Shown one piece after another: positions 41,322 to 54,874 of a stretch of 64,000 nt of DNA. Source of the DNA: Escherichia coli (GTDB lineage: Bacteria; Pseudomonadota; Gammaproteobacteria; Enterobacterales; Enterobacteriaceae). The first letter of the stretch is position 1. Every line of letters begins with the position of its first letter. The DNA is taken from assembly GCF_011045215.1 (NCBI RefSeq), contig NZ_CP049201.1. One strand, given 5' to 3'. The notes below the pieces were generated by a model. That model was not told the origin of the DNA. It made no database searches and saw only the letters and a list, made by a program, of their open reading frames with translations. A program made the translations under genes and the position numbers.

Positions 41322-42113
41322 TTATGGTTCGATCGCCGTTTTGAGACGTTGTGTTGCTACATCAAAATAATGATCACTGGTTTCTATACCAATAAATTTG
41401 CGTCCTGCTTTCAGTGCAGCCACACCCGTTGTCCCTGACCCCATAAAAGGATCAAGGACTGTTCCACCACTATTCGCAGTCCTGACCAGCTCTGCCATAA
41501 GTTCTTCTGGCTTTCCGGTCGGGTGCATTTTCTTTGACGGGATAACCGGGAACGTCATGCAGCCGTCGAACGGACCTGAAGGCGATTTATCTAAATGGCC
41601 TTTGCTGCCCCAGACGATGTATTCACACTGATGCCGGAAATACCCCGTATGGGGTGTTCGTGACCCCCTTCCTTTGTTCCACACAATGATTCCACGCCAT
41701 GTAAAACCGCTGGCCTGAAACGCATCGGTTAAAGCTGGTAGTTGTCGCCAGTCAGTAAATACCAGGGCATAACCGCCCGGTCTGACCGCGCGGTGTGCCT
41801 GTGCCATCCATAATTGTGTCCAGTAAGCCCACGAACGGGCGTCCATGTTTTCACCCGCGAACCCATCAAAGCGGTGAAGGTTCCCGCCGTTCAGATATTT
41901 TGCATGGCTGCCCTGGTTGGTGCGTCCGGCCTTGTGTGTCGCACCCGAACTGTAAGGCGGGTCAGTGATTAAAGCATCAATGCTTTCTGGCTCAATCAGC
42001 GGCAATATTTCCAGCGCATTCCCACGACAGAGCGTGGCATTGTCAGTCTGATAAACCTTAGTGTGTTCCGGTGTATGTGCTGGTTGGTGCTGGATTGCGA
42101 TCCCCACGGTCAT
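41322..42113 (-). CDS. Phage-borne beta-class DNA amino-methyltransferase (N6-adenine or N4-cytosine)
   Basis: 263-aa ORF with DPPY (motif IV) near the N-terminus and FMGSGTT (motif I) near the C-terminus; 5' end overlaps the com-like gene. Confidence 0.8.
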   Translation of the reverse strand: MTVGIAIQHQPAHTPEHTKVYQTDNATLCRGNALEILPLIEPESIDALITDPPYSSGATHKAGRTNQGSHAKYLNGGNLHRFDGFAGENMDARSWAYWTQLWMAQAHRAVRPGGYALVFTDWRQLPALTDAFQASGFTWRGIIVWNKGRGSRTPHTGYFRHQCEYIVWGSKGHLDKSPSGPFDGCMTFPVIPSKKMHPTGKPEELMAELVRTANSGGTVLDPFMGSGTTGVAALKAGRKFIGIETSDHYFDVATQRLKTAIEP

Positions 42114-42255
42114 AACTCCTCATGTGTGTGGGGTGCTCGATGGCTCTCGTTATCTGGTTAAGTGTTTTGCAGCGCGGACATTTTATTTCAATGTAGTGAA
42201 ATGAGGCGCGGGCAAGTAGTTTGTTGCAATTTTTGCATCGTACATTTTGCGTCAT
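42058..42255 (-). CDS. Com-like zinc-finger translational activator (phage Mu Com family)
   Basis: RCKNCNKLL...IEIKCPRCK...EHPT matches the recalled Mu Com C4 zinc finger; AGAGG RBS about 8 nt upstream of ATG 42255; 56-nt overlap with methyltransferase start as com overlaps mom in Mu. Confidence 0.75.
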   Translation of the reverse strand: MTQNVRCKNCNKLLARASFHYIEIKCPRCKTLNQITRAIEHPTHMRSYDRGDRNPAPTSTYTGTH

Positions 42256-42302
42256 TTGCGGCACCTCTTGTGTGGTTACTGCTGCCGATATGATAGCAAA
42301 TC

Positions 42303-42337
42303 GATCGTTTTTATCGATCGGATTTATTGCATCGATC
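42303..42337. promoter_or_regulatory. Cluster of three GATC (Dam) sites upstream of the com-like gene
   Basis: Three copies of ATCGATC(G/T) at 42303, 42316 and 42334 within 35 bp, 48-82 bp upstream of the com start. Confidence 0.4.
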
Positions 42338-42362
42338 TGTTATGTCTATTGCTCATGGATGG

Positions 42363-42402
42363 GGATACCAAAAAGAAAACCCGCAGTTTTTACGCTGCGG
42401 GC
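42363..42402 (-). terminator. Rho-independent terminator downstream of the hok-like ORF
   Basis: Minus strand reads CCCGCAG-CGTAAAAA-CTGCGGG followed by TTTTCTTTTT. Confidence 0.55.
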
Positions 42403-42490
42403 TTGTTGTTCATGTCTGTGAGATAGGGTGCCTTATCGACCTTACCCTGACAACCGATTGACGGGGGATTGCTCCCCCGTCGCGGTTTCC

Positions 42491-42631
42491 TTACTGCTTA
42501 CACTGTAAGAACGCCGCAAACTCCGCTCCCCAGAAGCTCATCCGTATTTCGCATAGCGAACCGTGCAGCATCCAGATGATGAGGATTGCCGTCACGCAGA
42601 ACGTGATGGCCGTAAGCGATTTTTGCGACAT
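42491..42631 (-). CDS. Hok/Gef-family type I toxin-like small membrane protein (46 aa)
   Basis: Manual translation MSQKSLTAITFCVTAILIIWMLHGSLCEIRMSFWGAEFAAFLQCKQ; AAGGAG RBS 8 nt upstream; single TMS then SLCEIR...G.E.AAF motif as in recalled Hok/Gef; not in ORF track (<60 aa). Confidence 0.5.
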   Translation of the reverse strand: MSQKSLTAITFCVTAILIIWMLHGSLCEIRMSFWGAEFAAFLQCKQ

Positions 42632-43124: not shown

Positions 43125-44234
43125 TCACTCTGTTTCCGCTATCCATTCCGGGATTTTTGCCTCAAGCTCAAGCTGTGTGGTAAAGCCACTGTTATCAATG
43201 GTGTGCTCGGCTTTTGCAATAATCCAGTCCTGATTATCAATCTCGCTTTTAAATCCTGTTACCGTGCCATGCATTTCGGGGTAGAGTTCTGCGCGTCCGC
43301 GTGCCAGTGTGATGGAGAATGATGCGGCTCCGCGTTGTAGTTGTTGCCACTTTGCCGCCGCTGCGCGTCTTGCTGCCTGCTCGTTCTGATAAGTCTTGCG
43401 TAACACAAACACATTGCCTTCCGCGCCTTCCATATAATCACCTTCACGGCTGCTGCTTTTCTCTTTTTTCGGTTTTGGCGGTTTGCGGCGTTTCACGCTG
43501 ACTTTTTTCTTTTTCCCGTAATTAAGATCAAGCCAGTAAGCGCGTACCCCCGTATACGCCTCGCGGTCAGCAATGCGGAACTGATGGCGATCGCCGCTGC
43601 TGCGTGTGATGGCGAACGAGGGCAACGGCTGGCCCTGTGCGTTCACGCCACCGCCGGGCATGATGAATAACAGATTACCGCTTTTTACCGTGGTGATTGC
43701 GCCCAGCATTTCCGCCATGCGCGTAAGGAAGGACATGTCACTTTCTTCGGTCTGGTCGGCGTGGTCGATTTCGATATCCATCAGCATTTCGCTGATTTGC
43801 GGTTTCAGACCGTACCGATGAGCGATGGCGGATACCACACGCTCAACGGTCACATCATGCCAGGACATCTCACGTTTAACGTTAAATTCATCCCGAAAAT
43901 CTGCGCTTCTGGCTGAAACAGTCAGCCTGTCCGGCGGTCCTTCGTGAGCGATTTCATCAACAATGTAAGTGCCTTTTTCTGTCAGCGGTTCTCCTTTCCA
44001 GCCAATGAGAACCGTCAGGCGCGCGCCCCGTGGCGGTAGCTGCAACTGACCATCCGCATCATCCAGCGTGATGGTGAGCTGGTCCGCCTCAAATCCCCGG
44101 TTGTCGGTCAGTGACAGGCTCATCAGGCGCTCGGCCACGCCTGACAGCGTTTTACCCTCCGCGAGAATATCAAAATCCGGCATTTTCACGGGGTCTGTGC
44201 CCTGACTGAGCAATTGCATGGTGGTATCGGTCAT
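43125..44234 (-). CDS. P2 gpD-like tail protein
   Basis: Start at MTDTTMQLLSQGTDPVKMPDFDILAEGKTLSGVAERLMSL (GGGAGG RBS); matches recalled P2 gpD; ORF-track start 44366 rejected. Confidence 0.85.
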   Translation of the reverse strand: MTDTTMQLLSQGTDPVKMPDFDILAEGKTLSGVAERLMSLSLTDNRGFEADQLTITLDDADGQLQLPPRGARLTVLIGWKGEPLTEKGTYIVDEIAHEGPPDRLTVSARSADFRDEFNVKREMSWHDVTVERVVSAIAHRYGLKPQISEMLMDIEIDHADQTEESDMSFLTRMAEMLGAITTVKSGNLLFIMPGGGVNAQGQPLPSFAITRSSGDRHQFRIADREAYTGVRAYWLDLNYGKKKKVSVKRRKPPKPKKEKSSSREGDYMEGAEGNVFVLRKTYQNEQAARRAAAAKWQQLQRGAASFSITLARGRAELYPEMHGTVTGFKSEIDNQDWIIAKAEHTIDNSGFTTQLELEAKIPEWIAETE

Positions 44235-44391
44235 CTGTTCCCTCCCTGTGCGGCATGGTCGCATGTGCGTGCGGAGGGGGTTACTGCTTTTTGTTGTCGC
44301 CGTGGCGGGAGAACGGCGCAGGGGTGAGATTACGCGCGTGGTGGGTGATGATTGTTGCCGAATCATTTAACGGATACAAGGGGCTGAAGCT

Positions 44392-45576
44392 ATGAGTGAA
44401 ACTCGTTTTCATGGTGCCCGTGTTACGGAAAATACCGACCTGGTAACAGCGATTAACGATGTTGATTCCAGCGTTATCGGTATCGTGGCAACGGCGGATG
44501 ATGCGGACGCGAAGCTGTTCCCGCTGAACAAGCCCACACTGCTGACCCGCGTCAATGACGTGCTGGGAAAATGCGGGACAACGGGGACGCTTTATCGTGC
44601 GCTTAAGGCCATCGCAGACCAGGTGAGCACAAAGGTGATCGTCGTTCGCGTGGCTGAACACAAAGAAGAAGACGGAAAAACGCAGGATCAACTGGTTATC
44701 GGTGGTTCTGAATCTGACGGCAGCTATACGGGGATGTATGCGCTGCTTGTTGCAGAGCAGGATGAAAGCATCGGATACCGTCCGCGTATTCTGGCCGCGC
44801 CGGAGCTGGACACGGAGGCGGTAACAAAATCCCTGTGCGTGATTGCGGGTAAACTGCGCGCGTTTGTGTATGCCTCATGTCACGGCTGTAACACGATGGC
44901 TGAGGCGATTACCTACCGCCAGAAATTCAACGAACGTGAGGTGATGCTCTTATGGCCGGACTTCATCGCCTACAACCCGAAAAGTGGCAAAAACGAAACG
45001 TTCCCCGCGCCTGCCTATGCGTGCGGCCTTCGTGCGTACATTGACCATGAGCAGGGATGGCACAAATCACTGTCCAACGTTCCGGTTAAAAATGTGCTGG
45101 GGATGTCGAGGCATGTGTTCTGGTCGTTGCAGGCCGAAGACAGCGATGCCAACAGCCTCAACAACAAAGAAATCACGACCATTATTCGTCGCAACGGGTT
45201 CCGCTTCTGGGGCAACCGCACACCGGAAACGAACGCCTACATCTTTGAGGTGTATACCCGAACCGCACAGGTGCTGGCTGATTCAATTGCGGAAGCGCAG
45301 TTTGAAACCATCGACAGTCCACTGACGCCTGCGAACGTGAAGGATGTTATCAGTGCCATCAGGGCAAAACTGGATTCACTGGTTACTGCCGGGAAACTGA
45401 TTGGCGCGGAGTGCTGGTATGACGTGGTGGATAACAGCACCACGGATTTACGTCAGGGGCGTGTGCGTATTCGCTACAAATATACGCCTGTTCCCCCGCT
45501 GGAAGACATGGAGCTTTACCAGACGTTTACTGATGAATACTTTGAACCCGCATTTGCGGTGCTGGGAGGTGCCTGA
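44392..45576 (+). CDS. Contractile tail sheath protein (P2 gpFI-like)
   Basis: 394-aa ORF; matches recalled gpFI (e.g. RTAQVLADSIAEAQ, YKYTPVPPLE). Confidence 0.9.
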   Translation: MSETRFHGARVTENTDLVTAINDVDSSVIGIVATADDADAKLFPLNKPTLLTRVNDVLGKCGTTGTLYRALKAIADQVSTKVIVVRVAEHKEEDGKTQDQLVIGGSESDGSYTGMYALLVAEQDESIGYRPRILAAPELDTEAVTKSLCVIAGKLRAFVYASCHGCNTMAEAITYRQKFNEREVMLLWPDFIAYNPKSGKNETFPAPAYACGLRAYIDHEQGWHKSLSNVPVKNVLGMSRHVFWSLQAEDSDANSLNNKEITTIIRRNGFRFWGNRTPETNAYIFEVYTRTAQVLADSIAEAQFETIDSPLTPANVKDVISAIRAKLDSLVTAGKLIGAECWYDVVDNSTTDLRQGRVRIRYKYTPVPPLEDMELYQTFTDEYFEPAFAVLGGA

Positions 45577-46088
45577 TGGCTGTGCCAAAACATCTTCGCT
45601 TTTTTACGCTGTTTGTGGATGGTGAAAACGAAGTGGGTAAGGTGACGTCCGTCACTCTGCCTAAGCTGACGCGCAAAACCGACAGCTACCGGGGTGGCGG
45701 CATGATGGGTGCGGTAAGTATTGATCTCGGTCTGGACGACTCCGCGCTTGATGCGAGCTTTGTCATGGGGGGCGCAGTTCGTGAGCTGTTCCTTAAGTAT
45801 GGCGGCACGATTGACGGCACGCTGCTGCGTTTTGCGGGTGAATACTACACCGATGCAGAAAGCGACCTGTATGAAGTCGAAATGCGCGGACGTGTGACGG
45901 AAATTGATATGGGGGAAGCCAAACAGGGCGAAGCCACATCACACACTTACGCCATTAAAAACACCTACTACAAGCTGAGTGTTAACGATCGCCCGTTGTG
46001 GGAGATTGACCTGCTGAACTTCATTTACCGGAAGGACGGCAAGGACATTGTGCCCGATCGCATCCGTTCCGCGCTTGGGCTTGGCTGA
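45576..46088 (+). CDS. Tail tube protein (P2 gpFII-like)
   Basis: 170-aa ORF immediately after sheath gene with 1-bp overlap. Confidence 0.85.
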   Translation: MAVPKHLRFFTLFVDGENEVGKVTSVTLPKLTRKTDSYRGGGMMGAVSIDLGLDDSALDASFVMGGAVRELFLKYGGTIDGTLLRFAGEYYTDAESDLYEVEMRGRVTEIDMGEAKQGEATSHTYAIKNTYYKLSVNDRPLWEIDLLNFIYRKDGKDIVPDRIRSALGLG

Positions 46089-46142
46089 TAAGTAATATGC
46101 AGGCGGCGCAGTGCGTCGCCTCTGACTGAAAGGAGTTTCCTG

Positions 46143-46508
46143 ATGAAAGAGACGAAAAACATCGATACCGAAAACACGGTAGTTACTGACACTGTGAAAG
46201 AAACCAGTGAGCGTGGCGTAAAACTTACCCAACCAATTGAGCGAGGCGGCGAAAAAATCACGTATGTGGAGATCACCGGGGCTATTGAGCAGGCTGGATC
46301 TCTGCGAGATTTGTCGCTGTCTGATGTGCTGAATCTGAAAGCGGAATCCATGTTTACGCTGCTGTCACGCGTGACATCACCGCGACTGGATGAAGTGACG
46401 ATCAAAAAAATGGCATCCCGTGACTTTATTCAGTTATGTGTGGTTGCCGTAAATTTTTTGAGCGGTGCGGACTCTGGCGGGAAGAACGAACAGGCGACGG
46501 AAGCCTGA
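46143..46508 (+). CDS. Tail assembly chaperone gpE; the -1 frameshift product E+E' extends to 46672
   Basis: 121-aa ORF followed by an overlapping -1 frame ORF (to 46672) whose sequence (PAEIFMMTPGEVVSWRERAA) resembles gpE' extensions; position between tube and tape-measure genes. Confidence 0.7.
   Translation: MKETKNIDTENTVVTDTVKETSERGVKLTQPIERGGEKITYVEITGAIEQAGSLRDLSLSDVLNLKAESMFTLLSRVTSPRLDEVTIKKMASRDFIQLCVVAVNFLSGADSGGKNEQATEA
46454..46460 (+). other. Slippery heptamer TTTTTTG for programmed -1 ribosomal frameshift (E to E+E')
   Basis: Zero frame reads AAT TTT TTG (N F L); shifting -1 at T TTT TTG gives FFERCGLW..., identical to the downstream overlapping ORF. Confidence 0.55.
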
Positions 46509-46658
46509 TCACGGTTGTGTGCTTTGAGCACATAGAAGACTTTGTGGCGGATATTGCCGCCATTTTTAACTGGTCGCCCGCCGAAATCTTCATGATGACG
46601 CCCGGCGAAGTGGTTAGCTGGCGTGAGCGGGCGGCACTTCGCAGCGGGAATGCAGACA

Positions 46659-49466
46659 ATGAAGACTCTTGATATCCGGGTCGCTTTCAGCGCCGTTGAC
46701 AGGCTGACCCGGCCTGCCGAAAACGCCCGCCGCCTGATGGGGCAGTTTGGTGACTCCATCCAGCGAACGCAGGGGGCGATCAAAAATCTCGAGCGTCAGG
46801 CGCGTTCATTTGAGCGCGCCCGTGACGCTGTCAGTAAAGCGGATGCTGGCATATTGAAAGCACGACGCCAGCTTAACGCCCTTAATCAGTTACAACGCAC
46901 GGGTACAGTGCTCAGCGAAAAACAACAAAAGCTGATGCAGCAGTTAAGCACCCGGCTTGAACGCCTGAATGAATCGCGCACACGTGAAATTCAGAAAATG
47001 CGGGAGCTTGGCGGAGAGCTGAAACGCCACGGCATTTCCCTGACAGGCAGCGATAACACCATCCAGCAGGCCATCAGACGCACCGAACAGTACAACAACC
47101 AGCTTGAACGCGAACGGCAGGCGCTTGCGCGTGTAACGCGGGCGCGTGAGCGGTATTCGCGCGTGCAGGAAACCGCGGGAAAACTGAAAACAGGTGGTGC
47201 GCTGGCAATTGGTGCGGCAGCGGCGGGCGGCTATGCTGCCGGGCGTTTTTTGCAGCCTGCGATCGGGTTCGGGAAAGAGATGTCCCGCGTTCAGGCGCTG
47301 ACGCGAATCGACCAGAACAGCCCACAGTTTAAGGCGCTGCGTGAGCAGGCGTTAAAACTTGGCTCTGAAACGCAGTTCACCGCTGGAGATGCCGCCAGTG
47401 GACAGGCATTTCTTGCAATGGCTGGCTTCACACCACAGGCCATTCAGGCTGCGCTTCCCGGTGTGCTGAGCATGGCAACGGCTGGCGGTATGGATCTCGG
47501 TGAGACGGCGGATATTGGCTCAAACATCCTGACGCAGTTCGGCCTTTCTGCCGACCAGATGGACCGGGTCGGTGACACGCTCACCGCAGCGTTTACCCGT
47601 ACCAACACTGACCTTCGCGCACTGGGCGAAACCATGAAATATGCAGGTCCGGTGGCGGGCAAGCTGGGAATATCGCTGGAGCAGGCCGCAGCGATGGCGG
47701 GCGTGCTGGCGAATATGGGTATCAGGGGAAGTGATGCCGGGACGGCAATGCGTGCCAGCCTGGCTCGTCTGGCATCACCGCCAAAGGCGGCAGCAGAGGC
47801 GCTGAAAGAGCTTGGTGTGGCAGTCTCTGACGCGAACGGCAAAATGCGCCCGATGGAGGATGTGCTGGCCGACCTTTATAAAGCCACCCGCAAATACGGG
47901 GAAGTTGACCGGGTATCGTTCTTTAAGGACATTGCCGGAGAAGAGGCTTTCACATCGTTTATGGCGCTCGTTGATGCAGCGGGTGACGGTTCCTTACCTA
48001 AACTGAGAAAAGAACTTGAAGGCGCGCGCGGTGAGGCTGAACGCACAGCAAAGGTTATGGCCAACAACCTTGACGGCGATCTGAAATCACTCGGCAGTGC
48101 ATGGGAAGGGTTGCGCATCCGCATTGCAGATCTGATTGACGGTCCGCTGCGTTCTGTCACGCAGTGGCTCACACGGGTGGTATCAAGGGTGACGGCGCTG
48201 GCGCAGGCCCATCCGACACTGACGCGCCAGCTACTGATAGCAGGCGGTGCGTTGCTGGCAATGACTGCAACGGTTGGCTCGTTGTCGCTGGCTATTGGTG
48301 TGCTTGCTGGCCCGCTGGCAAAACTGCGTCTTGGTTTTTCTCTCCTGACCGGATCAATGAATGCTGTCAGGGTCCTGCCAGCACTATGGGGAATGGTGAC
48401 GGGTTCCGTTTCTTTGCTGGGAGGTGCTATCGGGGCGCTGTTCAGTCCGGTTGGTCTTATCGTGGCTGCGCTTGCCGGAGCTGCCGTTCTTATCTGGAAA
48501 TACTGGGATCCCATCAGGGCATTTTTTGCCGGGGTGTTCAGCGGGATTATGGAAAGGCTGATCCCGTTGCGCGAAACCTTTGAACAGTTTGGTCCTGTTT
48601 TTGACGCAATCGGAAGCGGGATCAGCCAGGTGTTTAACTGGTTTAAATCGCTGCTGTCACCGATGGAGTCCAGCAAGGAAACGCTGGATAAATGTACCAG
48701 TGCTGGCGAGATATTCGGTAACGTTCTTGGTGGCGCGTTACAGCTTGTTCTGACGCCTGCAAAAATGTTGCTGGATACGCTGGCGTGGATACTTGAAAAA
48801 CTCGGTGTTCTTCCGGATGAAGCGGAAAGGGCGAGAAAGAAAATCGAAGACGCACAGCGTGCGGCCATTCTTCAGGACAAGGTTGCCTTGCTTCAGGGGG
48901 ACCTGGCGAAAATCAATCCGCCGAAGCCTGTGGAAAATGGCAATGGCACCGGAGGTGATAAACCCAAAGACAACAAACCGCTCACAGACAGCAATACCGG
49001 GACGCTACGCAGACTCAGCAAAATTGCTGATAACACAGGTAAGCTGGTTGATGAGACGAAAAAACGCATTGGCCCCGGCGATATTGTCTTTAAGAACCTG
49101 CCCCGCGCACTTGCTGTTCGTGGGGAGTGGCAGGAGCGGAAGATTGCGCAGGTCAGTAAGCCTGCCCCCGCAATTAATATCACACCCGTGGTCCCGGCTC
49201 CGCTGCCTCCGGCGCTGGTCCCTGTTGTTGCGGCCAGCTCCCGCCCGGTGGCGGAGGCTATACGATCTCCAGTGGCATCAGTTCCTGTAACTTCCCGTAA
49301 CCGGGAGCCTGTTGCCTCCGGATTTGGTGGTGAAATTCATGTTCATCTGCATAACGTTGTTACGCAGAATCCCCGCGAACTGGCGAAACTAGTCGGTGAA
49401 ATGGTCAGGGCAGAAATGGAACGGCGCGCCCGTGCCGGGCGTGGCAGTTTTTACGATAAAGATTGA
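46659..49466 (+). CDS. Tail tape measure protein (P2 gpT-like)
   Basis: About 935-aa coiled-coil / Gly-Ala-rich protein; start taken at MKTLDIR overlapping the E' stop (ORF-track start 46623 alternative). Confidence 0.85.
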   Translation: MKTLDIRVAFSAVDRLTRPAENARRLMGQFGDSIQRTQGAIKNLERQARSFERARDAVSKADAGILKARRQLNALNQLQRTGTVLSEKQQKLMQQLSTRLERLNESRTREIQKMRELGGELKRHGISLTGSDNTIQQAIRRTEQYNNQLERERQALARVTRARERYSRVQETAGKLKTGGALAIGAAAAGGYAAGRFLQPAIGFGKEMSRVQALTRIDQNSPQFKALREQALKLGSETQFTAGDAASGQAFLAMAGFTPQAIQAALPGVLSMATAGGMDLGETADIGSNILTQFGLSADQMDRVGDTLTAAFTRTNTDLRALGETMKYAGPVAGKLGISLEQAAAMAGVLANMGIRGSDAGTAMRASLARLASPPKAAAEALKELGVAVSDANGKMRPMEDVLADLYKATRKYGEVDRVSFFKDIAGEEAFTSFMALVDAAGDGSLPKLRKELEGARGEAERTAKVMANNLDGDLKSLGSAWEGLRIRIADLIDGPLRSVTQWLTRVVSRVTALAQAHPTLTRQLLIAGGALLAMTATVGSLSLAIGVLAGPLAKLRLGFSLLTGSMNAVRVLPALWGMVTGSVSLLGGAIGALFSPVGLIVAALAGAAVLIWKYWDPIRAFFAGVFSGIMERLIPLRETFEQFGPVFDAIGSGISQVFNWFKSLLSPMESSKETLDKCTSAGEIFGNVLGGALQLVLTPAKMLLDTLAWILEKLGVLPDEAERARKKIEDAQRAAILQDKVALLQGDLAKINPPKPVENGNGTGGDKPKDNKPLTDSNTGTLRRLSKIADNTGKLVDETKKRIGPGDIVFKNLPRALAVRGEWQERKIAQVSKPAPAINITPVVPAPLPPALVPVVAASSRPVAEAIRSPVASVPVTSRNREPVASGFGGEIHVHLHNVVTQNPRELAKLVGEMVRAEMERRARAGRGSFYDKD

Positions 49467-49472
49467 GGAGTC

Positions 49473-49967
49473 ATGGCCATGATGATGATCTACGGCATGT
49501 TTGTTTTTGAGCTGCGCACGCTGCCGCATCAGCAGTTACAGCAAAACAAAAGCTGGCGGCATGTGAAAAATGAACGCGTTAACCGTTCAGCAAGCTGGCA
49601 GTATATCGGTGCAGGTGATGATCGCATCGTTCTTTCTGGTGTGCTTTATCCTGAAATTACAGGTGGCGAAGTGTCGCTGTCGCTGCTGACCACGCAGGCG
49701 TATACAGGACGACCCTGGCCTTTGATTGATGGTGTCGGGCAGATTTACGGCATGTATGTCCTGACCGGAACGAATACGACCCGTTCCGAGTTTGATCGCT
49801 ACGGTAAGGCGAAAAAGATAGAATTTTCACTGACCCTTGAACGCTGTGATGAGGATTTGCGGGAGCGCCTGCAATCCTCATCGTTCAGTGATATGCTGTC
49901 CGGCTTCAAAGATAAGGTCACATCATCCCTTAACAGCGCGGCCAGCTCCGTTAAAGGGCTGTTTTGA
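49473..49967 (+). CDS. Tail protein gpU-like
   Basis: 164-aa ORF after tape measure; matches recalled P2 gpU pattern. Confidence 0.8.
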   Translation: MAMMMIYGMFVFELRTLPHQQLQQNKSWRHVKNERVNRSASWQYIGAGDDRIVLSGVLYPEITGGEVSLSLLTTQAYTGRPWPLIDGVGQIYGMYVLTGTNTTRSEFDRYGKAKKIEFSLTLERCDEDLRERLQSSSFSDMLSGFKDKVTSSLNSAASSVKGLF

Positions 49968-49974
49968 TTAACGC

Positions 49975-50004
49975 AAAACCGCTAATGGTCAGATTAGCGG
50001 TTTT
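49975..50004. terminator. Hairpin between convergent gpU and invertase genes; probable bidirectional terminator, overlaps the last invertase codons
   Basis: AAAACCGCTAAT-GGTCAG-ATTAGCGGTTTT, 12-bp perfect stem flanked by A/T runs. Confidence 0.45.
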
Positions 50005-50611
50005 CATTTTCCTGAGTCTGCCTGGTTGTTTCTTCAGCCTGTATATCGCCTACAGGGTGATAACGATAAATCGTCGATATGCCGATGCCGTAAATGATCG
50101 CCAGTTGTTTCCTGTCATGACCGTTTTTGATCAGCCTTGCTATTTGCTCATGCTGTTCTTTTGTCAGCTTCGGGCGACGTCCGCCTGTGCGCCCCCGTGC
50201 GCGCGCTGCCGCCAGTCCGGCCAGTGTACGTTCAACAATTAATTCACGTTCCATTTCAGCCAGGGCACCCATCACGTGGAAGAAAAAACGCCCCATTGGA
50301 GAAGATGTATCTATGCTGTCGGTCAGACTGCGAAAATTAATCCCTCGCTCCCGTAGTTCTCCGACGAGAGAAATCAGATGTTTCATGCTTCGCCCAAGGC
50401 GATCCAGTTTCCAGACAACCAGCGTGTCACCTTTTTGAAGCCGCTTTAAAGCGCGTTTTAATCCCGGTCGGTCTGTCTTTGTCCCGCTTAATTTATCTTC
50501 AAATATTTGTTCACATCCTGCACAAACAAGAGCGTTTCGTTGCAGGTCTGTATTCTGGTCATTTGTTGATACCCTTACATAACCAATCAGCACACTGAAT
50601 CTCCCGTCCAA
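49994..50611 (-). CDS. Site-specific DNA invertase, serine recombinase of the Gin/Pin/Hin/Cin family
   Basis: LIGYVRVSTNDQNTDLQRNAL N-terminus with catalytic Ser and C-terminal HTH; true start may be the GTG at 50593. Confidence 0.9.
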   Translation of the reverse strand: MDGRFSVLIGYVRVSTNDQNTDLQRNALVCAGCEQIFEDKLSGTKTDRPGLKRALKRLQKGDTLVVWKLDRLGRSMKHLISLVGELRERGINFRSLTDSIDTSSPMGRFFFHVMGALAEMERELIVERTLAGLAAARARGRTGGRRPKLTKEQHEQIARLIKNGHDRKQLAIIYGIGISTIYRYHPVGDIQAEETTRQTQENENR

Positions 50612-50657
50612 AAGCGCAAATCATGCCATGCAGGCCGGAAACGGCCATTATCTAAAA

Positions 50658-50683
50658 CCTCGGTTTACAGGAAACGGTAAATC
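50658..50683. other. Inversion crossover site (gix/pix-like), left boundary of the invertible segment
   Basis: TTATCTAAAACCTCGGTTTACAGGAA; 12-bp half-sites around a 2-bp core; inverted copy at 53717-53742. Confidence 0.65.
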
Positions 50684-51618
50684 AGGCTTCTGGCGCATTA
50701 CAGAAAAACCAGAACGGCGCAGATATTCCGGGAAAAGATACCTTCACCAAAAATATTGGGGCCTGCCGCGCATATAGCGCATGGCTGGATATTGGTGGCG
50801 ATAGTCAGGTCTGGACAACCGCGCAATTTATTTCGTGGCTGGAGAGTCAGGGAGCATTTAACCATCCTTACTGGATGTGCAAAGGCTCATGGGCTTATGC
50901 AAATAATAAGGTCATTACAGATACAGGTTGCGGAAATATTTGTCTTGCAGGTGCTGTGGTGGAAGTTATTGGCACTCGCGGCGCAATGACCATACGCGTT
51001 ACCACGCCGAGCACGTCCAGCGGTGGAGGAATTACTAACGCTCAATTCACTTATATTAATCATGGTGATGCTTACGCTCCTGGCTGGCGACGAGACTACA
51101 ACACGAAAAATCAACAACCTGCATTTGCTTTAGGGCAAACAGGAAGCACTGTCGGAAATGATAAAGCTGTTGGCTGGAACTGGAATAGCGGGGTCTATAA
51201 CGCAAATATTGGTGGCGCATCGACATTAATCCTCCACTTCAATATGAATACGGGGAGCTGCCCTGCTGCACAGTTCCGCGTGAATTACAGAAATGGCGGA
51301 ATCTTTTATCGTTCAGCGCGTGATGGTTATGGCTTTGAAGCTGACTGGTCAGAGTTTTACACCACAACCCGCAAACCCTCTGCGGGAGATGTTGGTGCAT
51401 ATACGCAGGCAGAATGTAACTCAAGGTTTATTACAGGTATTCGCCTTGGCGGTCTGTCATCTGTTCAGACATGGAATGGTCCCGGCTGGTCTGACAGGTC
51501 AGGTTATGTCGTTACGGGTTCAGTTAACGGAAACCGTGATGAATTAATTGATACAACTCAGGCAAGGCCAATTCAGTATTGCATTAATGGGACGTGGTAT
51601 AACGCGGGGAGTATTTAA
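50684..51618 (+). CDS. Alternative tail fibre C-terminal receptor-binding domain (silent in this orientation; no start codon of its own)
   Basis: Frame open from the crossover site ([10 protein letters not shown]...) to stop at 51618, in the same codon phase relative to the site as the expressed copy; ends ...[12 protein letters not shown] like the expressed fibre. Confidence 0.7.
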
Positions 51619-51620
51619 CG

Positions 51621-52154
51621 ATGATGCACTTAAAAAACATTACTGCTGGCAACCCTAAAACAAAAGAGCAATACCAGCTAACGAAACAATTTAACATCAA
51701 ATGGCTTTATTCAGAGGATGGAAAAAACTGGTATGAGGAACAAAAGAATTTCCAGCCAGACACTTTGAAAATGGTCTATGACCATAACGGCGTTATTATT
51801 TGTATTGAAAAGGATGTTTCAGCAATTAATCCGGAAGGCGCAAGCGTCGTTGAATTACCTGATATTACAGCAAATCGCCGTGCTGACATTTCGGGTAAAT
51901 GGATGTTCAAAGATGGCGTAGTGGTAAAGCGAACTTATACCGAGGAAGAGCAGAGGCAGCAGGCGGAAAATGAAAAGCAAAGCCTGCTACAGCTCGTCAG
52001 GGATAAAACCCAGCTATGGGACTCACAGCTACGGCTGGGCATCATTTCCGACGAGAATAAACAAAAATTAACCGAGTGGATGCTCTATGCGCAGAAAGTC
52101 GAATCCACAGACACCTCCAGCCTGCCAGTAACGTTTCCAGGACAACCAGAATGA
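51621..52154 (+). CDS. Alternative tail fibre assembly chaperone (U'-like)
   Basis: 177-aa ORF starting [22 protein letters not shown], paralogous to the minus-strand chaperone at 52183-52710. Confidence 0.8.
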
Positions 52155-52182
52155 GACAAGGCCCGCTATCGGGCCTTAATTT

Positions 52183-52710
52183 TTATTCAGGCTTTTGTGG
52201 CCATTCAGGATTTGCCGTATCCACACGGCTGACCAGAACACTGTAGCGTTCCCATGACTCCAGTCGTGTGCGTTCCTCATCCGTCGCCATATTCAGCCTG
52301 ACAGCGCGTTCCAGTGGCTGAATAACGCTTTCAGCTTCGGAAAGTAACGCAGCCTTTTGTGATTCGGCCTGTTGTTGTTGCTCGTCTGCCGTATAAATCC
52401 GTTTAACTACAGCTCCATCCTTAAACATCCACTTTCCTGAACCATCAGCGCGGCGGTTGGCTGTAATATCGGGAACCTCAACGACGCTAAAACCTTCAGG
52501 GTTAAGCGTGGAGGCATCTTTAGTAATGGCGACAATAATATTATTTGCATCGTAAACAATCTTTATTGTGTCTGGCTGAAAGTTTTTCACTTCCTCATAC
52601 CAGTTTTTTCCGTCCTCAGAGTAAAGCCAGATAACTCCGTGTTTCTTTGTTAACTCATACTGTTCCAGTGTTTTAGCGTTACCCGCTTTTATGTTCTTTA
52701 AGTGCATCAT
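52183..52710 (-). CDS. Tail fibre assembly chaperone (P2 gpG / Mu U-like), currently expressed orientation
   Basis: 175-aa ORF starting [22 protein letters not shown] directly downstream of the tail fibre gene. Confidence 0.8.
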
Positions 52711-52711
52711 A

Positions 52712-54874
52712 TTAAACGCTCGCTACATTATACCAGGTGCCATTTATATACTTTTGAACGGGTCTGTAATAAACGCCCGCTATATTATCGGCAGAGTTGG
52801 AGCCTGTATCCTGAACATTAATACCAGACAATACATGACCTGACGGGCACTGGAAATTCCATGTTTGCCAGTTGTTCACTCCATAATATTGCTGTGAACC
52901 AAGTCGAACATCTTTCACATATCTGGAATCAAAATTGCCATAATTGCCGGGAATAACTTGCGCACCGCAAAGCCAGTTCCCGTTATTATCCATGTACGCC
53001 TGACCATCGGTGCCATTGGCTGTCCTTGAGTTATTAATCATGTAGATGCCAAATTGCTTATTTCCCAGACCGCCAATCATAAATTTTCGGTCGGCATGGT
53101 CCTGACGGAGCAAGGCCTGGGCGCTATCAGTGTTAACTATATTTTTCCCAAAGATAGCGTTGTTATCGCGCATCTGAATCCACATACCATTACCGCTGTT
53201 AATAGCAAAACGGTCTGAAAGTGTTTCTCCTGAAACATTAAGGCCACGCCCCATCGAAACAGCGCCAGTAGCGTTATTAATCCATAATGGCCTTAATCCG
53301 TTATAAGTCCCCATGTTGTCACCGGAGTTTGTCAACATGAAGTATGTATTTGAACCATCATTACGAATAAAGAATCCGTAACTACCATAAGCAATACGTA
53401 GGCCGTTTGCTGATTTTGATATGACTTCGCCATTTACAATGGCATTGACAAGAACATACAAAGCATCCCATTTAAGATTCATCAGGTCTTTTGTTGTGGT
53501 GCCTTGTTTGCTTCTCCATTTGAAATATTCATTGCCGTTGTCGCCTGTTTCAAACCACATGTATGAATCAGTATCGCTGTCGGCATCATTTTTAAATCCA
53601 ATCTTTGCCCAGTCAGTATTTCGAATCCAGGCAAGGATTGAGTCGTTTTCAAAAGTAAGTCCACCGGACAAGGTATCGCCTGTCTTTTGAACGGCGTTAC
53701 CAGCCTTGTTTACCGTTTCCTGTAAACCGAGGTATTCGATAACGGCGGCAACGGTCGATTTCGCAAGAATATCCCGCCCAACTTTTGTCAGGGTTGCCAA
53801 GCTGGCAACATCATTCCCCGTAAAATACGGAAACCTGTCTGCCGCAGTAGCAAGCCCGGCCAGCGCCGTCAGGGTGGCATCTTTCGGTTGCTTACCCGCA
53901 AGCGCGTTAGTCATGGTGGTCGCAAAATTCGGGTCGTTGCCCAACGCCGCAGCCAGCTCGTTCAGCGTATTCAGTGCGTCAGGCGACGAGTCCACGAGGG
54001 CAGCGATCGCAGCCATAACATAAGCCGTGCTTGCGATCTGAGTATTGTTAGTACCTTTTGGCGCAGTTGGTGTTGTTGGTGTTCCGGTCAGTGCCGGGCT
54101 GTTTAATGGGGCTTTCTTGTTCGTTTCATCCATTACCGCCTTAACCGCTTTTGGTGTCGCTGCCAGCGTTTCAGACGTGCTGTTGGTTGCACTACTAAGC
54201 TGGACAAGGCCTTTTCGCGTTGTAGTGGCGTCCTGAGCGGTATATTTTCCGTTAGCCAGGTCATACGCGGCCTTTACTGCTTTCGGCGTTGCAGCCTGCG
54301 TTTCAGAATCGTTGTTAGTGGCGCTACTGAGTTGAACAAAGCCTTTTGCGGTCAGCGAGGCATCCGGGTGACGTCGTGACTGTTCATGCTCTTTCAGTTT
54401 GTCATTCACGTAATCCACTGTGGCCATAACCATGGTGTTATCCACGGTAAGCGCCACGGTGGCAGTGCTGGATACGGTCAGAATGGTGCGAAATGTTTGT
54501 GCACGTCCGGACCCTTCGGCAACGGCTGGCTTGTAACTTTCGGCAGTATTGCCCACCGCGATCAAATCGCCGTGCTCATCAAACACACCAATTTCCCGGA
54601 TCCAGAATCCGCCCGTTTCAGGAGGAATAACCAGCTCTGCAATAATGCGGTTCTGATGTGTTGCGTCCAGGATGATGCGATTAACAGTATGTCGCCACAC
54701 CTCATGCACCAGACGGGTCTGCTTACTGTCTGGTGTGGGCAATGTACCGCCACCGTCGCCCACGGCCATATGAGTCAGGCGGACAGGCTTACCATCTGGC
54801 GCGGCTGCCTGAGCTAATTTTTTGGCACCCGTATCGGTGATAACGGTTTTAAATTTTCGTGTTGTGGTACTCAT
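52712..54874 (-). CDS. Tail fibre protein (P2 gpH-like) with constant N-terminal part and invertible C-terminal part
   Basis: 720-aa ORF; N-terminal region matches recalled P2 gpH; the crossover site falls at ...[13 protein letters not shown]... Confidence 0.9.
53717..53742. other. Inversion crossover site (gix/pix-like), right boundary, inside the tail fibre gene
   Basis: TTCCTGTAAACCGAGGTATTCGATAA, inverted relative to 50658-50683 with 17 of 17 identical bases from the outer end and minor divergence in the other half-site. Confidence 0.65.

What the first reader, a model, noticed from the sequence alone, without database searches (positions are those of the whole stretch)
46143..46672. Programmed -1 frameshift site in the tail assembly chaperone gene (E to E+E')
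Seen in sequence: a TTTTTTG slippery heptamer at 46454-46460 where the zero frame (N F L S G A D...) terminates 16 codons later while the -1 frame continues for about 70 codons to a stop overlapping the tape-measure start. Established knowledge: tail chaperone frameshifting at this position is conserved (lambda G/GT, P2 E/E').
Basis: partly seen in the sequence, partly recalled or inferred. Interest (0 to 1): 0.3.

Follow-up and report, generated by a model that had tools for sequence, protein, structure and literature searches.

The report
Tail chaperone frameshift in P88-like prophage
This is the well-known ribosomal "slip back one base" signal that P2-type phages use to make a longer version of a tail-assembly helper protein, found here in a common E. 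coli prophage where public annotation misses it; it is ordinary biology with one small twist in which slippery motif is used.

Summary
TTTTTTG lies at 46454-46460 in the X XXY YYZ phase of a 121-codon gene (46143-46508) between the tail tube and tape-measure genes of a P88-like (Xuanwuvirus, P2 family) prophage. The zero frame stops at 46506-08. The -1 frame is open from 46424 to TGA 46670-72, overlapping the tape-measure ATG (46659). The -1 extension matches Pfam Phage_P2_GpE above threshold. The predicted 176-aa fusion aligns colinearly with P2 gpE+E' across the junction (E=3e-25). The slip site falls at one alignment column in 14 of 15 Peduoviridae. Purifying selection switches from frame 0 to frame -1 at the site. 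Neither candidate independent start has a ribosome-binding site. Refinement: the window carries two overlapping in-phase heptamers, A AAT TTT (46451-57) and T TTT TTG. All 84 genus relatives keep the first. About 600 E. coli records and the functional phage PhiSM have TTG->ATG, which removes T6G. Published E. coli data rank A_AAU_UUU-type motifs above U_UUU_UUG. RefSeq annotates E' as a separate 51-aa gene, which is probably wrong. This is a new member of a known kind, of low interest. No protein-level evidence exists for this lineage.

The parts
46128..46136 (+). Shine-Dalgarno region (GAAAGGAGU) of gene E
   Evidence: Anti-SD duplex of -8.2 kcal/mol, comparable to the other tail genes at -6.8 to -11.5
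46143..46508 (+). Gene E, the zero-frame tail assembly (tape-measure) chaperone: 121 aa, stop TGA 46506-08
   Evidence: ORF. PHROG 103 'tail protein' at 2.3e-35. Pfam Phage_TAC_7 at only 17.2 bits against a cut-off of 25. Aligns to P2 gpE.
46451..46457 (+). In-phase slippery heptamer 1, A AAT TTT (P site Asn AAU, A site Phe UUU). This is the genus-conserved candidate slip site.
   Evidence: Phase shown. Present in 84 of 84 Xuanwuvirus loci. It is the only heptamer left in the TTG->ATG allele. The H_HH.U_UU.Y class is efficient in E. coli (PMC4066793).
46454..46460 (+). In-phase slippery heptamer 2, T TTT TTG (P site Phe UUU, A site Leu UUG), identical to the P2 T6G site.
   Evidence: P2's annotated site is the same. 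Present in 80 of 84 genus loci.
46457..46672 (+). E' coding sequence in the -1 frame: 70-71 codons, stop TGA 46670-72. It is translated only as an extension of E. The fusion is join(46143..46460,46460..46672) or join(46143..46457,46457..46672), 176 aa either way.
   Evidence: Translation. PF06528 Phage_P2_GpE at 44.6 bits, residues 135-170. PHROG 1756 at 2.1e-38. Synonymous/non-synonymous codon changes are 10/6 in frame -1 against 1/13 in frame 0.
46461..46505 (+). Dual-coding overlap: the 15 C-terminal codons of E, and the start of the E' linker in frame -1
   Evidence: Window vs P88_4B11: frame -1 has 6 synonymous / 3-4 non-synonymous changes and frame 0 has 1/7
46517..46672 (+). Stand-alone 51-aa 'GpE family phage tail protein' CDS as annotated by RefSeq (GTG start). 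Probably not an independent gene.
   Evidence: Annotation. SD only -3.5 kcal/mol and not conserved. Frame -1 is conserved upstream of this start. The AF2 beta-hairpin at residues 112-126 would be cut off.
46659..49466 (+). Tape measure protein gene (T homologue); its start overlaps the E+E' stop by 14 nt
   Evidence: PF10145 at 2.3e-58; annotation
45576..46088 (+). Tail tube gene (FII homologue) immediately upstream
   Evidence: PF04985 at 7.5e-47
44392..45576 (+). Tail sheath gene (FI homologue), first gene of the operon
   Evidence: PF04984, PF22671 and PF17482

Best explanation
Gene E (46143-46508) encodes the abundant tail-assembly (tape-measure) chaperone of a P88-like, P2-family prophage. 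In a minority of translation events the ribosome slips back one nucleotide on the 10-nt run A AAT TTT TTG (46451-46460). It then continues in the -1 frame to TGA 46670-72 and makes a 176-aa fusion, E+E'. By analogy with P2 gpE/gpE+E' and lambda gpG/gpGT, the shared E part binds the tape-measure protein, and the E' part recruits tube subunits or otherwise completes the assembly complex. The slip rate fixes the ratio of the two products. Shown here: the anatomy, the homology of both parts, the homologous position of the slip site, the frame switch in selection, and the absence of an independent start. Inferred: that slippage occurs, its efficiency, which of the two overlapping heptamers is used (A_AAU_UUU gives ...VNF-F-ERC; U_UUU_UUG gives ...VNF-L-ERC), and the protein functions. 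No RNA stimulator appears to be involved, as in P2.
For: Heptamers in phase inside the 28-codon window where a -1 shift is productive. E' matches PF06528 above threshold and PHROG 1756 at 2e-38. The fusion is colinear with P2 gpE+E' at 31% identity, E=3e-25, with the junctions aligned. P2, Wphi, 186 and Milagro records annotate the same -1 shift. All 18 Peduoviridae examined have an E-overlapping -1 ORF plus an in-phase X XXY YYZ heptamer, and the heptamer sits at one alignment column in 14 of 15 aligned phages. Window vs P88_4B11: upstream of the site, frame 0 has 18 synonymous / 8 non-synonymous changes against 2/24 in frame -1 (p=8e-6); downstream, frame -1 has 10/6 against 1/13 in frame 0 (p=0.002); the 11 frame -1 codons just 5' of the site have 0/6. 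No SD precedes ATG 46436 (-1.5) or GTG 46517 (-3.5), against -8.2 for E. The AF2 model of the fusion has pLDDT 86 and pTM 0.75, with the junction in a helix and residues 107-125 folded at pLDDT about 93. Its viral-structure matches are tape-measure and tail assembly chaperones. The -1 ORF is intact in 81 of 84 genus loci. P88 and PhiSM make tailed infectious virions (PMC5285337; PMC6456863).
Against: There is no proteomic or reporter evidence for this lineage. The bare heptamer is not statistically rare. The Pfam match of the E domain is below threshold, and NCBIfam has no hit. No stimulatory structure or upstream SD was found. U_UUU_UUG is not among the efficient motifs in the E. coli heptamer survey. 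In other genera the short overlap region is variable in both frames, so the frame-switch statistic rests mainly on one lineage pair. The AF2 alignment was built from my own predicted fusions.
Confidence: 0.9

Rival explanations
1. E' is an independent small gene (51 aa from GTG 46517, as RefSeq annotates it, or 78 aa from ATG 46436), translated by its own initiation. No fusion is made.
For: PGAP and phage records annotate it that way in more than 1,300 E. coli records and in P88. Start codons exist in the -1 frame.
Against: Neither start has a usable SD (-3.5 and -1.5 kcal/mol). The GGAAG upstream of GTG 46517 is not conserved in the 84%-identical allele. ATG 46436 is GTG in relatives, and the frame -1 codons between it and the slip site show 0 synonymous / 6 non-synonymous changes. 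Frame -1 is under selection from the slip site onward, upstream of GTG 46517 (7/5). Residues 107-125 are predicted to be structured. In P2 the homologous E' lacks an RBS and is reported to be made as a frameshift extension (PMC3931495 citing Christie 2002; P2 annotation).
Confidence: 0.04
2. The same fusion is made by transcriptional slippage: RNA polymerase adds one U on the T6 run, so standard translation of the edited mRNA enters the E' frame.
For: A run of six T (46454-59) is present, and an extra U would give the same frame change. Homopolymer runs are known slippage sites (general knowledge; PMC4066793 notes U7/A7 under-representation).
Against: T6 is short for efficient slippage (own knowledge). 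The arrangement is kept where the run is only T4 (the ATG allele, about 600 E. coli records and functional PhiSM) or T3 (Kp4847-1, C CCT TTC). What is conserved is the in-phase X XXY YYZ pattern, not run length.
Confidence: 0.04
3. The overlap is a chance or decayed feature of a defective prophage: the heptamer is fortuitous and E' is a relic.
For: TTTTTTG occurs 31 times in the window. Some relatives in E. coli carry damaged neighbouring genes, such as the truncated gpD in strain GB089.
Against: The -1 ORF is intact in 81 of 84 genus loci and across 18 phages from seven or more host genera. There is purifying selection in frame -1. The Pfam hit is above threshold. Near-identical P88 is an inducible, plaque-forming phage.
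Confidence: 0.01

Closest known systems
Bacteriophage P2 gpE / gpE+E' programmed -1 frameshift in the FI-FII-E-E'-T-U-D tail operon (Christie et al. 2002, J Bacteriol 184:6522; RefSeq NC_001895 P2p25/P2p26)
   Same: Same gene order from sheath to gpU. Homologous E and E' domains (31% identity, colinear). The same T TTT TTG heptamer in the same phase and at the same alignment column. E' lacks an RBS, and the E+E' stop overlaps the start of T. No obvious RNA stimulator.
   Different: The window has an additional overlapping heptamer, A AAT TTT, which P2 lacks (P2 has GGT TTT TTG). The zero-frame tail after the site is 15 codons against 6, and the E'-side linker is about 10 residues longer with a predicted beta-hairpin. 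Part of the genus has lost T6G altogether. gpD and ogr are on the opposite strand upstream of the sheath gene, as in phage P88. The frameshift is not annotated in any Xuanwuvirus record seen.
Phage lambda gpG / gpGT, and the conserved tail-assembly-chaperone frameshift of dsDNA tailed phages (Levin et al. 1993; Xu, Hendrix & Duda 2004, 2013, 2014; reviewed in PMC5009743)
   Same: Two overlapping ORFs between the major tail (tube) gene and the tape-measure gene, joined by a low-level -1 slip on a heptamer without a strong stimulator. The expected role is setting a fixed ratio of short to long chaperone.
E. coli stimulated -1 frameshift signals (dnaX, IS3/IS911: heptamer plus upstream SD and/or downstream hairpin or pseudoknot)
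   Same: X XXY YYZ tandem-slippage logic. The motif hierarchy measured in E. coli applies (PMC4066793).
   Different: No SD-like element 6-17 nt upstream (best -2.2 kcal/mol). No significant downstream structure (z +0.3 to +1.3).

Membership tests
P2-type gpE / gpE+E' tail assembly chaperone pair | Located between the tail tube gene (FII) and the tape measure gene (T) in a sheath-tube-E-T-U operon | tested here: met
   Pfam assignments of the neighbouring genes; ORF map; RefSeq annotation
P2-type gpE / gpE+E' tail assembly chaperone pair | N-terminal (zero-frame) part homologous to gpE (Pfam PF10109 Phage_TAC_7) | tested here: inconclusive
   PF10109 scores 17.2 bits, below the 25-bit cut-off, and NCBIfam has no hit. 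Against that, BLASTP to P2 gpE+E' gives 3e-25 covering the E part, PHROG 103 gives 2.3e-35, and the E part aligns across 15 phages. Homology is met by direct comparison, not by Pfam's own threshold.
P2-type gpE / gpE+E' tail assembly chaperone pair | C-terminal part homologous to E' (Pfam PF06528 Phage_P2_GpE) | tested here: met
   44.6 bits against a cut-off of 23, residues 135-170 of the fusion, all encoded in frame -1; PHROG 1756 at 2.1e-38
P2-type gpE / gpE+E' tail assembly chaperone pair | E' lies in the -1 frame, overlaps the 3' end of E, and lacks its own ribosome-binding site | tested here: met
   Frame -1 is open from 46424 to 46672 and overlaps E by 28 codons. SD energies are -1.5 and -3.5 kcal/mol at the candidate starts.
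P2-type gpE / gpE+E' tail assembly chaperone pair | In-phase slippery heptamer within the overlap, at the position homologous to P2's T6G | tested here: met
   T TTT TTG at 46454-60 and A AAT TTT at 46451-57; same alignment column as P2
P2-type gpE / gpE+E' tail assembly chaperone pair | The E+E' stop overlaps the start of the tape measure gene | tested here: met
   TGA 46670-72 against ATG 46659; P2 shows 19857 against 19850
P2-type gpE / gpE+E' tail assembly chaperone pair | The fusion protein is actually produced by a -1 shift and is essential for tail assembly | not testable with these tools
   Needs proteomics, a reporter or genetics. Indirect support comes only from the selection pattern and the AF2 model.
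General tail assembly chaperone (lambda gpG / HK97 gp10-like) fold | Structural similarity of the short product to solved tail assembly chaperones | tested here: inconclusive
Stimulated bacterial -1 PRF signals (dnaX / IS3 type) | Upstream SD-like element and/or stable downstream hairpin or pseudoknot at 5-9 nt | tested here: not met
   Best upstream anti-SD pairing is -2.2 kcal/mol. Downstream 45-67 nt give z +0.3 to +1.3. The 100-nt fold gives z -1.96, but its stem lies about 55 nt away.

The most novel reading that the evidence does not exclude
In the P88-like genus the operative slip site is A_AAU_UUU (Asn-Phe), not the canonical P2 T6G. The common T/A polymorphism at 46458 (TTG vs ATG; roughly 790 vs 600 E. 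coli records) would then be a natural switch between a double and a single slippery site. It would change the E:E+E' ratio and might be offset in the ATG allele by a hairpin 4-8 nt downstream (-18.9 kcal/mol, z about -2).
Probability: 0.3. Interest if true: 0.35.

Novelty: new member of a known kind. Interest (0 to 1): 0.2.

Why it matters
The biology (a fixed-ratio pair of tail assembly chaperones made by a -1 slip) is textbook for P2 and lambda, so the finding mainly corrects annotation. A tail module present in about a quarter of complete E. coli genomes (1,373 of 5,426) is annotated with a probably non-existent 51-aa gene in place of a 176-aa frameshift product. The small scientific point is that this genus offers a natural pair of alleles, one with two overlapping heptamers and one with a single heptamer. 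That pair could be used to measure how slip-site choice tunes chaperone stoichiometry in a real phage.

Tried and rejected
1. I tested whether the heptamer alone is significant. It is not: 31 copies against about 21 expected.
2. I looked for a downstream stimulatory structure. None was found in the window and none is conserved across 16 phages. The hairpin in the ATG allele is only marginal (z -1.6 to -2.0 at 45-50 nt, -0.2 at 60 nt).
3. I looked for an upstream SD-like stimulator and found none.
4. I considered the A7 run at 46404-46410 as an alternative slip site. I rejected it because it is out of phase for X XXY YYZ, and frame -1 hits TGA at 46421-23.
5. I considered independent initiation at ATG 46436 or GTG 46517 and rejected it on SD strength, conservation and selection pattern.
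6. I first suspected that gpD and ogr on the minus strand upstream of the sheath gene reflected a rearrangement. It is the normal P88 genome order.
7. I extended the frame-selection test to pairs from other genera. The short overlap is too variable to discriminate between frames there (pooled p=0.29).
8. NCBIfam, a PDB sequence search and PDB Foldseek gave nothing.
9. Christie et al. 2002 is not in the held library, so its content is cited second-hand through PMC3931495 and from my own knowledge.
10. The first viral-contig scan returned almost only near-identical loci, so divergent relatives were fetched one at a time from phage records.
Full report
**Observation.**
The sequence reads gta aat ttt ttg agc around 46451-46463. 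The ORF from ATG 46143 to TGA 46506-08 (121 aa) places codons at AAT/TTT/TTG. The zero frame stops 15 sense codons after TTG. The -1 frame is open from 46424 (TGA at 46421-23) to TGA 46670-72, giving about 70 codons after the site. It ends 14 nt inside the tape-measure gene, whose start is ATG 46659. All parts of the observation are confirmed. The motif alone is not informative, with 31 copies in the window against 21.5 expected. The case rests on phase, location and conservation.

**Context.**
The window is E. coli chromosome carrying a P88-like prophage (genus Xuanwuvirus, family Peduoviridae) next to raiA/bamD. The local genes are:
- sheath, 44392-45576;
- tube, 45576-46088;
- E, 46143-46508;
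- tape measure, 46659-49466;
- gpU, 49473-49967;
- gpD and ogr, on the opposite strand upstream (Pfam).

This is the normal gene order of phage P88. P88 is an inducible, plaque-forming myovirus (PMC5285337). The 600-bp region is found in 1,373 of 5,426 complete E. coli genomes.

**Homology of the two parts.**
The -1 extension matches Pfam PF06528 'Phage P2 GpE' at 44.6 bits (cut-off 23), on residues 135-170 of the predicted fusion. It also matches PHROG 1756 at 2e-38. The zero-frame part matches PHROG 103 (2e-35), but reaches only 17 bits on Pfam Phage_TAC_7 (cut-off 25), and NCBIfam has no model for it. Direct BLASTP of the predicted fusion against P2 gpE+E' gives one colinear alignment over residues 23-172 (31% identity, E=3e-25). 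In it 'VNFL' lies over P2's 'VGFL', so the slip sites are homologous. The P2 RefSeq record annotates a -1 frameshift at ggT TTT TTG with E+E' ending inside T. Wphi, 186 and Milagro carry equivalent annotations. PMC3931495 summarises Christie et al. 2002: T6G slippery sequence, E' without a ribosome-binding site, E' overlapping T. From my own recollection of that paper, E' is essential and the shift frequency is about 10%. I could not read the paper here.

**Conservation.**
In 18 Peduoviridae from Escherichia, Citrobacter, Klebsiella, Serratia, Salmonella, Yersinia, Shewanella, Vibrio, Mannheimia, Burkholderia and Acidovorax, every E gene is overlapped at its 3' end by an E'-like -1 ORF. Every overlap holds an in-phase X XXY YYZ heptamer:
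- mostly T TTT TTG;
- T TTT TTT in two phages;
- C CCT TTC in Kp4847-1;
- G GGA AAG in Mannheimia.

In an alignment of predicted fusions the site falls at a single column (the nearly invariant F105) in 14 of 15 sequences. Among 84 Xuanwuvirus loci the -1 ORF is intact at 71 codons in 81; the other three have indels.

**Which frame is translated?**
I compared the window with the 84%-identical P88_4B11 allele.
- Upstream of the site, frame 0 shows 18 synonymous and 8 non-synonymous codon changes. Frame -1 shows 2 and 24 and contains stops (Fisher p=8e-6).
- The 11 frame -1 codons immediately 5' of the site show 0 and 6.
- From the site to the -1 stop, frame -1 shows 10 and 6, against 1 and 13 for frame 0 (p=0.002).
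- In the dual-coding overlap alone the counts are 6/3 against 1/7 (p=0.05).

Selection thus changes frame at the heptamer. That point is well upstream of GTG 46517, the start RefSeq uses for a stand-alone 51-aa 'GpE family' protein. Neither GTG 46517 nor ATG 46436 has a Shine-Dalgarno sequence (-3.5 and -1.5 kcal/mol, against -8.2 for E and -6.8 to -11.5 for the neighbouring genes). ATG 46436 is not conserved. An AlphaFold2 model of the fusion is confident (pLDDT 86, pTM 0.75). The junction lies at the end of helix 92-108, and residues 107-125 form part of a beta-hairpin at pLDDT about 93. A start at residue 126 would cut that element off. As a caveat, the alignment used for the model was made from my own predicted fusions. 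In pairs from other genera the overlap is short and variable in both frames, so this test does not generalise statistically.

**Refinement of the slip site.**
The window carries two overlapping in-phase heptamers: A AAT TTT (46451-57) and T TTT TTG (46454-60). All 84 genus loci keep A AAT TTT. Four have TTG->ATG, which removes T6G. About 600 E. coli records are at least 95% identical to that ATG allele, against about 790 for the window allele. The ATG allele occurs in PhiSM of Citrobacter rodentium, described as a fully functional temperate phage (PMC6456863). The Klebsiella relative Kp4847-1 has C CCT TTC at the same column, again with the Phe codon in the A site. The systematic E. coli heptamer survey lists H_HH.U_UU.Y, which includes A_AA.U_UU.U, among the efficient motifs. 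It finds UUY A-site codons better than UUG/UUA, and lists U_UU.U_UU.G as efficient only in the eukaryotic system (PMC4066793). So A_AAU_UUU is probably used in this genus, alone or together with T6G. The two routes give products differing at one residue (F or L at position 106). This is inference; only a junction peptide can settle it.

**Stimulators.**
No SD-like element lies upstream. There is no significant structure in the 45-67 nt downstream (z +0.3 to +1.3). Nothing is conserved across the family, P2 included. The ATG allele folds a hairpin 4-8 nt after its heptamer (-17.7 to -18.9 kcal/mol, z -1.6 to -2.0), but the signal disappears at 60 nt. I treat it as a lead only.

**Fold.**

**Rivals.**
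- Independent initiation of E' is contradicted by the missing ribosome-binding site, the selection pattern and the P2 precedent.
- Transcriptional slippage on T6 cannot explain conservation of the arrangement where the T run is only 3-4 long.
- A chance or relic origin is contradicted by conservation and purifying selection.

**Verdict.**
It is a new, unannotated member of a well-known kind, and interest is low. Two points are useful. The RefSeq and phage annotations of this very common prophage module should carry a joined E+E' CDS. The genus also offers natural double- and single-heptamer alleles for studying slip-site usage.

Noticed in passing
window 49994-54874: A serine recombinase (DNA invertase) gene at 49994-50611 (-) sits beside tail-fibre C-terminal and fibre-assembly cassettes in both orientations. 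A 62-nt inverted repeat (50644-50705 / 53685-53746, 79%) brackets about 3 kb that includes the 3' end of the 720-aa fibre gene 52712-54874 (-). It looks like a Gin/Cin/Pin-type invertible host-range switch.
   Followed up: partly
window 41322-42631: A Com-like zinc-finger ORF (42058-42264, -) overlaps the start of a DNA methyltransferase gene (41322-42113, -) by about 56 nt, and a Hok/Gef-family toxin ORF lies at 42491-42631 (-). All three sit at the prophage end next to raiA, and the names come from the RefSeq annotation of a near-identical strain.
   Followed up: no
window 43125-44366 (-): The gpD (baseplate hub) ORF is open for 413 aa from ATG 44366, with a long basic N-terminal extension. 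P88 annotates 366 aa, and in strain GB089 the homologue is truncated with a pseudogene fragment.
   Followed up: no
whole window: The P88 attP core reported in PMC5285337 (GCCACCCGAAGGTG) is absent from the window even at one mismatch, although the prophage abuts raiA as in other strains. The other prophage end lies beyond the window.
   Followed up: partly
L087:972-1021 (P88_4B11), compared with window 46461-46510: The allele lacking T6G (GTA AAT TTT ATG) folds a hairpin just downstream of its remaining heptamer (-18.9 kcal/mol, z -2.0), which the window allele cannot form (-10.8, z +0.7). The differences are mostly synonymous in the -1 frame. This could be compensation for a weaker slip site, or chance.
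   Followed up: partly
L007:1501-2031: This IMG/VR locus is a mosaic: the 5' half of E matches the window allele and the 3' half plus the slip site matches the 4B11 allele. This implies recombination within gene E between the two allele groups. It also carries a 1-nt indel that truncates E'.
   Followed up: no
window 46659 (also ATG 46650, GTG 46623): The tape-measure start has only a weak SD (-4.3 kcal/mol) and lies inside the end of E'. This suggests translational coupling to E+E' or E translation. Two further in-frame starts exist upstream.
   Followed up: no
L002 (NC_026014), L004 (NC_001895), L087, L088: There are annotation oddities in public records. The tail tube gene (Pfam Phage_tube, 7.5e-47) is labelled 'head closure' in the P88, P2, 186 and other RefSeq records. 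The gene preceding the tube gene in Shae_phiSM is labelled 'late control gene D protein'. PhiSM was described as a siphovirus with a non-contractile tail, although its genus encodes a sheath.
   Followed up: no
window 46404-46410: There is an A7 run inside E (I K K M). It is out of phase for X XXY YYZ, and a -1 shift there would terminate at TGA 46421-23, so it is a dead end rather than a second recoding site.
   Followed up: yes
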